Part shown: positions 63,298 through 64,000 of the stretch, in pieces
Numbering within the stretch: position 1 is the stretch's first letter
How the letters are laid out: every line of letters begins with the position of its first letter
Source: Escherichia coli
GTDB lineage: Bacteria > Pseudomonadota > Gammaproteobacteria > Enterobacterales > Enterobacteriaceae
DNA length: 64,000 nt
Reading direction: 5' to 3' (one strand)
Assembly: GCF_045037415.1 (NCBI RefSeq)
Contig: NZ_CP173438.1
Notes under the pieces: model-generated
What the model saw: only the letters and a program-made list of their open reading frames with translations
Told to the model about the DNA's origin: nothing
Database searches by the model: none
Translations under genes and position numbers: made by a program

Positions 63298-63619
63298 AAC
63301 GCTGAGAGCACTTAGCCTGTTAAGGCGCCACACTTTGTCGCGGCTCCATAAATGCTCTCATCGTTGTACCCTCGTCTCTTCCGAGGCGTCACACCGAATC
63401 GCCGGGATGGTGAATCCCCGTGCGCGGAATAAAACCGCTCGACTTGCACATTCCGGCTACCTGGTTCGTTTGCCCGAGCAAGGGAGGGTGCCCCTTAAAC
63501 GTATCCAGACCGCTATCGGCGCATGTGCCATACGCCGTACTGCTCAAAATAAAAGCTCACTCCACCTGTTCAATTTAACGACAATCCAGTCAGGTTAGTA
63601 ACCGGAATGAACTCTTTGG

Positions 63620-63634
63620 TTACCTGAAAGGTAA
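63620..63634. promoter_or_regulatory. perfect TTACC-N5-GGTAA palindrome upstream of the rightward genes
   Basis: TTACCTGAAAGGTAA in an AT-rich gap. Confidence 0.55.
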
Positions 63635-63724
63635 TAATTTGTGCGTTAAATGTCAACTATCTACGATAAATAAATCATATGTGGTTAAATTGGTAATAAT
63701 TTAATTGCGTACGGAGTCATTGAT

Positions 63725-63931
63725 ATGTGCATGGGTAGCTCACCATCAGTGCCTGCAACACCAGAAGTTCAGGCAGCACCACAGGAGCAGGATGCCGCCG
63801 TTGTTGATGCCCGCGACGAAGAAACACGTCGCCGTCGCGCTGCTGCTGGTCGTAGTTCTACGCTGCTTACCGGTTCTCAGGGCGACACATCAACCGCTAA
63901 TACCAGCGGTAAAACGCTGCTTGGTCAGTAA
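63725..63931 (+). CDS. hypothetical small protein (68 aa)
   Basis: ATG preceded by CGGAGTCATTGAT; chosen over the overlapping 63705-63944 frame because of RBS and composition. Confidence 0.4.
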   Translation: MCMGSSPSVPATPEVQAAPQEQDAAVVDARDEETRRRRAAAGRSSTLLTGSQGDTSTANTSGKTLLGQ

Positions 63932-63945
63932 CCGGAGTCATTGAA

Positions 63946-64000
63946 ATGGCGGAAACAACTAAAGAGCGATTGAACAAACAGTTCGCACAACTTGAAAGCG
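63946..64000 (+). CDS. start of a downstream gene (truncated by the window end)
   Basis: ATG preceded by near-identical CGGAGTCATTGAA; begins MAETTKERLNKQFAQLES. Confidence 0.4.
   Translation, partial: MAETTKERLNKQFAQLES

What the first reader, a model, noticed from the sequence alone, without database searches (positions are those of the whole stretch)
63591..63948. Duplicated sequence block around two consecutive start codons
CGGAGTCATTGA(T/A)ATG occurs at 63712-63727 and 63932-63948, immediately before two successive start codons, and AGTAACCGGA occurs at 63595-63604 and 63927-63936. This may be a shared translation-initiation or regulatory element, or the trace of a local duplication.
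Basis: seen in the sequence. Interest (0 to 1): 0.3.

Follow-up and report, generated by a model that had tools for sequence, protein, structure and literature searches.

The report
Two neighbouring ribosome-binding sites that match
The repeated block is the ribosome-binding site of two adjacent head genes (a small gp3 protein and the portal) of a phiV10-like prophage; the extra identity occurs in one sub-lineage only and looks ordinary.

Summary
Both repeats exist, with small coordinate errors. CGGAGTCATTGA lies at 63712-63723 and 63933-63944. In each copy it is a GGAG Shine-Dalgarno core plus 7 of the 8 spacer bases before an ATG. The two genes are co-oriented: gp3 (63725-63931, 68 aa, homologue of epsilon15 gp3) and the portal gene (ATG 63946, Pfam PF12236).

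The window end is a phiV10-like (Uetakevirus) prophage. Similarity does not extend beyond 16 nt, so this is not a segmental duplication.

In about 25 related lineages, the extended identity appears only in one monophyletic group, the phiV10 clade plus the Tyrion clade. About 15 other lineages share only the SD core. The motif occurs nowhere else in phiV10, has no antisense partner, and sits in no unusual RNA structure.

A 12-nt in-register match between adjacent starts is unlikely by chance (roughly 0.0004 to 0.005). It probably arose once, either by a short copy event or by coincidence.

The second repeat, AGTAACCGGA, is really at 63597-63606. It is at chance level (p about 0.2) and polymorphic among near-identical prophages.

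Verdict: ordinary translation-initiation regions, low interest.

More interesting by-products:
- an unannotated, covarying candidate ncRNA at about 63300-63545 (minus strand), present in a third of complete E. coli genomes;
- a large uncharacterised gp3 family that sat directly upstream of a PF12236 portal gene in every locus examined.

The parts
63712..63727 (+). Repeat copy 1: translation-initiation region of gp3 (SD GGAG 63714-63717, 8-nt spacer TCATTGAT, ATG 63725-63727)
   Evidence: the start is fixed by the invariant Met-Cys N-terminus in 30 of 30 family members
63725..63931 (+). gp3 gene (68 aa; homologue of epsilon15 gp3 / PhiV10p06; phrog_831; no Pfam family)
63933..63948 (+). Repeat copy 2: translation-initiation region of the portal gene (SD GGAG 63935-63938, 7-nt spacer TCATTGA plus A, ATG 63946-63948), starting 2 nt after the gp3 stop codon
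63946..64000 (+). 5' end of the portal (head-tail connector) gene, cut by the window end
   Evidence: the full phiV10 orthologue hits PF12236 Head-tail_con at E = 6.7e-187; annotation
63597..63606 (+). Upstream copy of AGTAACCGGA: non-coding, polymorphic, chance-level match
63927..63936 (+). Downstream copy of AGTAACCGGA: last two bases of the gp3 Gln codon, the TAA stop, and the start of the portal SD
63619..63711 (.). Nearly invariant non-coding block directly upstream of the gp3 SD (probable promoter/operator region). It contains the palindrome TTACCTGAAAGGTAA at 63620-63634 and an invariant TGTCAA, which reads TTGACA on the minus strand.
   Evidence: the epsilon15 record annotates the equivalent palindrome as a repressor site

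Best explanation
The two blocks are the ribosome-binding sites of two adjacent, co-oriented head-morphogenesis genes of a phiV10-like (epsilon15-family, Uetakevirus) prophage: gp3 and the portal gene gp4.

In each block GGAG would pair with the CCUC of the 16S rRNA 3' end, about 8 nt before the ATG. The portal site begins 2 nt after the gp3 stop codon, so ribosomes finishing gp3 can reinitiate there. This is ordinary translational coupling and is inferred, not shown.

The identity beyond the SD is the spacer TCATTGA. It is a lineage-specific accident of history. It is present in one monophyletic group (phiV10 clade plus Tyrion clade) and so arose once, at the base of that group. The cause was either a very short copy of one initiation region onto the other or coincidence.

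It has persisted because initiation regions evolve slowly, not because the two copies are kept identical. It has no function separate from being two RBSs.

The AGTAACCGGA repeat is a chance match between the gp3 stop/SD junction and a variable non-coding stretch.
For: Gene identities and starts:
- ORFs and annotation.
- Portal hits PF12236 at 6.7e-187; gp3 hits phrog_831 at 2.4e-36.
- Met1-Cys2 is invariant in the gp3 family.

No extended similarity beyond the block.

Comparative table of both RBSs in about 25 lineages:
- phiV10 type: TCATTGAT (gp3) / TCATTGAA (portal).
- Tyrion type: TCATTGTT / TCATTGTC.
- About 15 other lineages share only the SD core. Example: epsilon15 has CTATTGCT versus TAGGCAGAG.
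- Those lineages are epsilon15, SPN1S, Klebsiella, BUCT554, Pseudocitrobacter, Superficieibacter, Buttiauxella/Hafnia, Cronobacter, Providencia, Morganella and a second E. coli type.

The portal tree puts all repeat-bearing lineages in one clade.

Divergence between the phiV10 and Tyrion clades:
- Silent sites differ by about 38-48%.
- The gp3 block differs at 1 of 14 positions.
- The portal block differs at 3-4 of 14. Most Tyrion-clade members have GGAG changed to GGGG, and one has C changed to A.
- So the copies drift independently.

The motif occurs nowhere else in the 39-kb phiV10 genome and has no reverse-complement partner. Local RNA folds are unremarkable, with z = +0.6, -1.0 and +0.45.

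The 10-mer is at chance level and polymorphic.
Against: A 12-nt in-register identity between adjacent starts is improbable by chance: about 4e-4 under the model and about 5e-3 after correcting for its under-dispersion. Some copying event or convergent selection is therefore likely, and I cannot tell which.

Both copies differ between the two clades at the same spacer position (A in phiV10, T in Tyrion). This could hint at gene conversion or co-selection. With about 45% silent divergence I estimate this coincidence at p of about 0.1.

The Buttiauxella/Hafnia portal spacer (CTTATTGA) resembles the phiV10 portal spacer with a 1-nt shift. An older origin of that spacer is therefore not excluded.
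Confidence: 0.8

Rival explanations
1. Matched initiation regions. The portal RBS was overwritten by a copy of the gp3 RBS, or the reverse. The match is useful because it equalises translation of gp3 and portal, which would assemble 1:1 (12:12) if gp3 works like T7 gp6.7.
For: The identity is unlikely by chance.

gp3-like genes sit immediately upstream of PF12236 portal genes even in distant relatives, with gaps of 0-3 nt or a 1-nt overlap.

Twelve copies of the N-terminal loop (residues 2-15) of T7 gp6.7 surround the portal barrel (PMC11784390). gp3 shares an N-terminal MC...P..P motif with it (hhalign, 10 columns, pairwise E = 4.6e-4, probability 33%).

Both copies carry the same clade-specific base at spacer position 7.
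Against: About 15 related lineages with the same gene pair have unrelated spacers and different SD-ATG spacing, so matching is not required.

In the Tyrion clade the portal SD has drifted to GGGG while the gp3 SD has not.

The gp3/gp6.7 relationship fails Pfam and BLASTP.

The initiation rate also depends on downstream coding sequence and on coupling, and these differ between the two genes.
Confidence: 0.1
2. Shared cis-regulatory operator. A phage or host RNA-binding protein, or an sRNA, recognises GGAGTCATTGA and co-regulates translation of gp3 and the portal.
For: The same sequence appears at the same register before two consecutive starts. The initiation regions are conserved far better than silent sites.
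Against: The motif is confined to one sub-lineage. It occurs only twice in the phage, and no complementary sequence exists within 2 mismatches. There is no conserved local structure. The neighbouring conserved block stops at the SD and is not repeated before the portal gene.
Confidence: 0.05
3. Remnant of a larger local (tandem) duplication, for example a former second copy of gp3 or of the intergenic region. The two short repeats would be the last recognisable traces.
For: The sequence 63923-63948 can be read as a composite of 63593-63606 plus 63712-63727, overlapping at CGGA.
Against: Nothing beyond 16 nt is similar. The upstream 14-mer is polymorphic in near-identical prophages and absent from all other relatives. 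The region between the two upstream pieces is the ancient, nearly invariant promoter/operator block, not an insertion. No gp3-less junction exists in IMG/VR.
Confidence: 0.03

Closest known systems
Shine-Dalgarno translation-initiation regions and translational coupling in phage late operons (textbook knowledge)
   Same: A GGAG core lies 7-8 nt upstream of an ATG. The second site starts 2 nt after the stop codon of the upstream gene, in a co-oriented head-gene cluster.
   Different: The only oddity is that the spacer as well as the SD is identical between the two neighbouring sites, and this holds in one sub-lineage only.
Short conserved boundary or 'linker' sequences at gene junctions of mosaic temperate phages (modular-evolution literature; recalled from my own knowledge, not checked here)
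   Same: A short sequence at gene boundaries that could serve as microhomology for recombination.
   Different: Here the two copies lie in one genome, 221 bp apart, flanking a gene that is never lost. No mosaic breakpoint maps to them: gp3, the spacers and the portal 5' end show the same relationships between the two clades.
T7 gp6.7 (Pfam PF17570) and the T7 gp8 portal
   Same: gp3 is a small protein starting Met-Cys with a Pro/Lys-rich N-terminal segment. Its gene lies just upstream of a T7-type (PF12236) portal gene. In T7, twelve gp6.7 N-terminal loops wrap the portal barrel (PMC11784390).
   Different: There is no significant sequence similarity beyond the first 10 residues. The rest of gp3 (RRRR...STLLTG...KTLLGQ) is unrelated. 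In T7 three genes separate 6.7 from gene 8. Whether gp3 is in the virion is unknown.

Membership tests
Shine-Dalgarno translation-initiation region | Purine-rich core complementary to the 16S rRNA 3' end, about 5-10 nt upstream of the start codon | tested here: met
   GGAG lies 8 nt (gp3) and 8 nt (portal) before the ATG. The same core and position are seen in relatives.
Shine-Dalgarno translation-initiation region | The start codon opens a real, conserved protein-coding gene | tested here: met
   For gp3, M1 and C2 are invariant, and divergence is about 45% at third positions against 14-17% overall. The portal hits PF12236 from residue 7.
Shine-Dalgarno translation-initiation region | Ribosome binding or initiation demonstrated at the site | not testable with these tools
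   Needs toeprinting, ribosome profiling or reporter fusions.
Segmental / tandem duplication | Similarity extends beyond a short motif into the flanks | tested here: not met
   The best local alignment is the 16-nt block alone (score 14, null mean 10.1, 3% of shuffles at least as good). The comparison of 63300-63724 against the gp3-portal sequence is at null level.
Conserved cis-regulatory motif | Conserved across related genomes at both sites | tested here: not met
   The extended identity is found only in the phiV10 and Tyrion clades. About 15 other lineages share the SD core only.
Conserved cis-regulatory motif | Recurs at other co-regulated genes, or has a complementary partner | tested here: not met
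   There are only two exact copies in phiV10. Matches at up to 2 mismatches are at the chance level (5 observed, 3.5 expected), and none lies at a gene start.
T7-like gp6.7 family (PF17570), considered for gp3 | Match to the family profile | tested here: not met
   There is no Pfam hit at E up to 10 for four gp3 variants, while T7 gp6.7 scores 3.4e-28. BLASTP gives E = 2.0.
T7-like gp6.7 family (PF17570), considered for gp3 | N-terminal Met-Cys portal-binding loop | tested here: inconclusive
   Profile-profile alignment covers 10 columns only (probability 33%, pairwise E = 4.6e-4). Providencia gp3 has MCGNILGGTQKIKTP against T7 MCFSPKIKTP.
T7-like gp6.7 family (PF17570), considered for gp3 | Virion core protein bound to the portal and ejected at infection | not testable with these tools
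   Needs virion proteomics or cryo-EM. The conserved adjacency to PF12236 portal genes is only suggestive.

The most novel reading that the evidence does not exclude
In the phiV10/Tyrion lineage, a micro-conversion of about 8-12 nt copied the gp3 initiation region onto the portal gene. The match is retained because it equalises synthesis of gp3 and portal. These two proteins would assemble 12:12, with gp3 acting as a gp6.7-like clamp on the portal barrel.
Probability: 0.08. Interest if true: 0.3.

Novelty: already known. Interest (0 to 1): 0.1.

Why it matters
The finding itself matters little. It shows that two neighbouring phage genes can carry near-identical ribosome-binding sites without this marking a duplication or a regulatory site. 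It also gives a worked example of how to test such a repeat: in-register statistics across all gene starts, plus comparison across relatives.

The work around it turned up things of more value:
- gp3 belongs to a large uncharacterised family of small Met-Cys proteins (1588 cluster representatives). In every locus examined its gene sat immediately upstream of a T7-type portal gene. A gp6.7-like role at the portal is therefore a testable guess.
- About 170 nt upstream of the finding lies an unannotated, covarying candidate non-coding RNA. It is carried by prophages and P1-like plasmids in a third of complete E. coli genomes.

Tried and rejected
- Extended duplication. Smith-Waterman alignment of the upstream region against the gp3 end and portal start, continued past the window end with phiV10, found nothing beyond 16 nt.
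- Conservation. The first IMG/VR scan returned only gp3-identical E. coli prophages and was uninformative. Diversity came from GenBank phages, a GTDB genome scan and contig look-ups.
- Concerted evolution or gene conversion. The same-position A/T difference between clades looked suggestive. However, silent divergence is about 45% and the portal copy drifts on its own (GGGG and GTAATTG variants). The idea is rejected as unsupported.
- sRNA or antisense target. There is no complementary sequence in the phage.
- RBS-sequestering structure. Fold z-scores are +0.6, -1.0 and +0.45.
- Repeat-mediated precise loss of gp3. The predicted junction is absent from IMG/VR.
- gp3 as a T7 gp6.7 homologue. Pfam, BLASTP and hhalign support only a 10-residue N-terminal resemblance.
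- Literature. Papers on gp3 of epsilon15-like phages and a search for the ncRNA core sequence gave nothing relevant.
- Rfam. There is no family for the region apart from the tRNA.
- Sigma-70 promoters. The consensus scan found none in 62500-64000.

Full report
**What is in the window.** The last 4 kb of the window is a phiV10-like prophage of the epsilon15 family (Uetakevirus).
- Megablast of 63000-64000 gives 98-99.5% identity to phiV10, TL-2011b, the O157 typing phages 9 and 10, and others. Identity to Tyrion, SPN1S and epsilon15 is about 80-86%.
- From ORF listing and the phiV10 and epsilon15 annotations, the local map is as follows:
  - terminase large subunit, 61082-62557 (+);
  - an Sf6 gp66-like gene, 62615-63022 (-);
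  - tRNA-Arg(UCU), 63221-63297 (-);
  - about 430 nt of non-coding DNA;
  - gp3, 63725-63931 (+, 68 aa; equivalent to PhiV10p06 and epsilon15 gp3);
  - the portal gene from ATG 63946, cut by the window end.
- The phiV10 orthologue of the portal matches Pfam PF12236 (Head-tail_con, the T7 gp8 type) at E = 6.7e-187. gp3 matches phrog_831 (function unknown) and no Pfam family.

**Checking the observation.** Both repeats are real, with small coordinate errors.
- Each 12-mer copy is GGAG followed by 7 of the 8 spacer bases before an ATG. The second copy begins 2 nt after the gp3 TAA stop.
- I compared the -20 to -1 regions of all 55 annotated phiV10 genes in register. The gp3/portal pair has the longest identical run (12). 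Other pairs reach 10, 9, 9 and 8, and the 10-nt run consists of extended SD sequence (AAGGAGGTGAGT-like).
- A position-specific model gives 7e-6 per pair for a run of 12 or more, which is 4e-4 for the 54 adjacent pairs. The model under-predicts the real tail 5-15 fold, so about 0.005 is more honest.
- In simulations of the 701-nt region, a repeat of 12 nt or more occurs in about 1% of cases and a repeat of 10 nt or more in about 20%.
- The 12-mer is therefore modestly beyond chance. The 10-mer is not.

**No wider duplication.** Local alignment of 63560-63740 against the end of gp3 and the first 180 nt of the portal gene returns only the 16-nt block. The sequence beyond the window was taken from phiV10. 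The score is 14 against a null mean of 10.1, and 3% of shuffles do as well. The rest of the upstream region against gp3 and the portal gene is at null level.

**Relatives.** I collected both initiation regions from about 25 lineages: GenBank phages, a scan of one genome per species, IMG/VR, and contigs encoding divergent gp3 proteins.
- phiV10-type prophages have TCATTGAT before gp3 and TCATTGAA before the portal gene. Of 80 IMG/VR prophages of this type, 72 carry exactly this pair of initiation regions, and in all 80 the 12-nt core of each copy varies at no more than one base.
- Tyrion-type phages have TCATTGTT and TCATTGTC. In most of them the portal SD has drifted to GGGG, and one has GTAATTG.
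- All other lineages share only the SD core. Their spacers are unrelated and sometimes differ in length. For example, epsilon15 has CTATTGCT against TAGGCAGAG. These lineages are epsilon15/SPN1S/PAT1 and their Citrobacter prophages, two Klebsiella types, BUCT554/Erwinia dacicola/Enterobacter kobei, Pseudocitrobacter, Superficieibacter, Buttiauxella/Hafnia, Cronobacter, Providencia, Morganella and a second E. coli type.
- A tree of the first 220 portal residues puts all repeat-bearing lineages in one clade, with the second E. coli type as its sister. One origin suffices.

**Is the identity being maintained?** Between the phiV10 and Tyrion clades, third-codon positions differ by 38-48%. The 90 nt upstream of gp3 differ by 12-16%.
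- The gp3 block differs at 1 of 14 positions, clearly slower than neutral.
- The portal block differs at 3-4 of 14.
- Both clades differ at the same spacer position in both copies (A versus T). At this level of divergence I put that coincidence at about p = 0.1.
- The independent drift of the portal SD argues against ongoing conversion or selection for identity.
- The simplest reading is that the match arose once and has decayed slowly, because initiation regions are constrained in their own right.

**Tests for a special function.**
- The 12-mer occurs only twice in the 39-kb phiV10 genome. Matches at up to 2 mismatches are at chance level and include no usable reverse complement.
- Folding of the mRNA around either start is unremarkable, with z = +0.6, -1.0 and +0.45.
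- The two direct repeats could in principle mediate a precise loss of gp3. The predicted junction is absent from IMG/VR, where at least 362 relatives keep gp3.

**The second repeat.**
- The upstream copy of AGTAACCGGA lies in a variable stretch outside the conserved block.
- Among 79 near-identical prophages fewer than half have the exact 10-mer, and phiV10 itself reads AATAACCGGA.
- The downstream copy is simply CAG-TAA followed by the portal SD.
- This repeat is a chance match.

**What gp3 may be.**
- gp3 homologues from Enterobacterales are all annotated as hypothetical.
- A profile search finds 1588 cluster representatives at E of 1e-3 or better.
- Most start Met-Cys, have a Pro/Lys-rich N-terminus and an Arg-rich centre, and end with STxLTG...KTLLGQ.
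- In three distant members the gene is again immediately upstream of a PF12236 portal gene, with gaps of 0-3 nt or a 1-nt overlap.
- T7 gp6.7 begins MCFSPKIKTP. Cryo-EM shows twelve copies of its N-terminal loop around the portal barrel (PMC11784390).
- The resemblance to gp3 is limited to the first 10 residues: hhalign probability 33%, no Pfam hit, BLASTP not significant.
- I therefore do not file gp3 in that family. I note a gp6.7-like, portal-associated role as a testable guess. If it were true, matched RBSs could help 1:1 synthesis. The many relatives with unmatched sites make that at most a lineage-specific refinement.

**Surroundings.**
- The 93 nt before the gp3 SD (63619-63711) are nearly invariant across relatives whose silent sites are close to saturation.
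- The block starts with the palindrome TTACCTGAAAGGTAA. The pattern TTACC-N5-GGTAA occurs 7 times in the window against 0.06 expected. The epsilon15 record annotates the equivalent sites as repressor operators.
- The block also contains an invariant TGTCAA, which reads TTGACA on the minus strand. This suggests divergent, operator-controlled promoters. That is inference only, since the consensus scan found no sigma-70 promoter.

**Verdict.** The finding is a pair of ordinary translation-initiation regions. Their extra similarity is a lineage-specific historical accident. It is neither a duplication trace nor a conserved regulatory element. Interest is low.

Noticed in passing
window 63300-63545, minus strand (core 63337-63477): Unannotated candidate structured ncRNA, about 170 nt upstream of the finding.
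- It lies upstream of gp3 in nearly all Uetakevirus-like relatives, with or without the adjacent tRNA. It also occurs next to cI in the lambdoid phages cdtI, mEp460 and 2H10, and between a tRNA and ban in P7 and P1-like plasmids.
- It is found in 1839 of 5426 complete E. coli genomes (2473 places), and no feature was annotated under the match in any of the 40 records sampled across the ranking.
- There is no Rfam family and no paper containing the core sequence.
- In a 27-sequence alignment, 19 predicted pairs are 97.8% paired, against 27-55% when the partners are slid. Six pairs show compensatory changes (0 of 500 shuffles reach this). Many G-U pairs point to the minus strand.
- The single-sequence fold has z = -2.3.
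   Followed up: partly
This is complementary to the invariant core of the candidate ncRNA (inverted repeat I3). On the minus strand all 12 positions pair, one of them as G-U. On the plus strand there is a C-A mismatch. Two common polymorphisms in phiV10-type prophages would keep the pairing as G-U, but four rarer variants break it. It could be an alternative pairing in a longer leftward transcript, or chance.
   Followed up: partly
window 53157, 53219, 53931, 56262, 56324, 60457, 63620 (+): The palindrome TTACC-N5-GGTAA occurs 7 times against 0.06 expected. Two pairs are spaced 62 nt apart. One site lies near the small-terminase start and one lies 90 nt upstream of the gp3 SD. Equivalent sites in the epsilon15 record are annotated as repressor operators. 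This suggests that the head-gene region is directly operator-controlled.
   Followed up: partly
window 63619-63711: A non-coding block that is nearly invariant across relatives whose silent sites differ by about 45%. It contains an invariant TGTCAA, which is a perfect TTGACA on the minus strand lying 17 nt from the operator palindrome. It also contains TGGTTAAAT (like an extended -10) and the inverted repeat TTAAATTggtaatAATTTAA on the plus strand. It is probably a divergent promoter/operator region. The consensus scan found no sigma-70 promoter.
   Followed up: partly
window 63725-63931 (gp3) and loci L123-L126: gp3 belongs to a large uncharacterised family of small proteins, with 1588 cluster representatives at E of 1e-3 or better. 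Members typically have a Met-Cys N-terminus and a KTLLGQ C-terminus. The gene lies directly upstream of a PF12236 portal gene even in distant members. The N-terminal 10 residues resemble those of T7 gp6.7, whose N-terminal loop binds the portal barrel in 12 copies.
   Followed up: partly
window 63221-63297 (-), 63142-63177 (-), 63042-63057 (-): A phage-borne tRNA-Arg(UCU) with an encoded CCA end. It is followed on its strand by two terminator-like hairpins. It is present in phiV10 and SPN1S types but absent from Tyrion and several other relatives that still keep the neighbouring ncRNA-like element.
   Followed up: partly
window 63705-63944 (+): A 79-aa TTG-initiated ORF overlaps gp3 in another frame and ends at the TGA inside the second repeat copy. 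It is probably spurious: the gp3 frame shows the codon-position pattern of a real gene.
   Followed up: no
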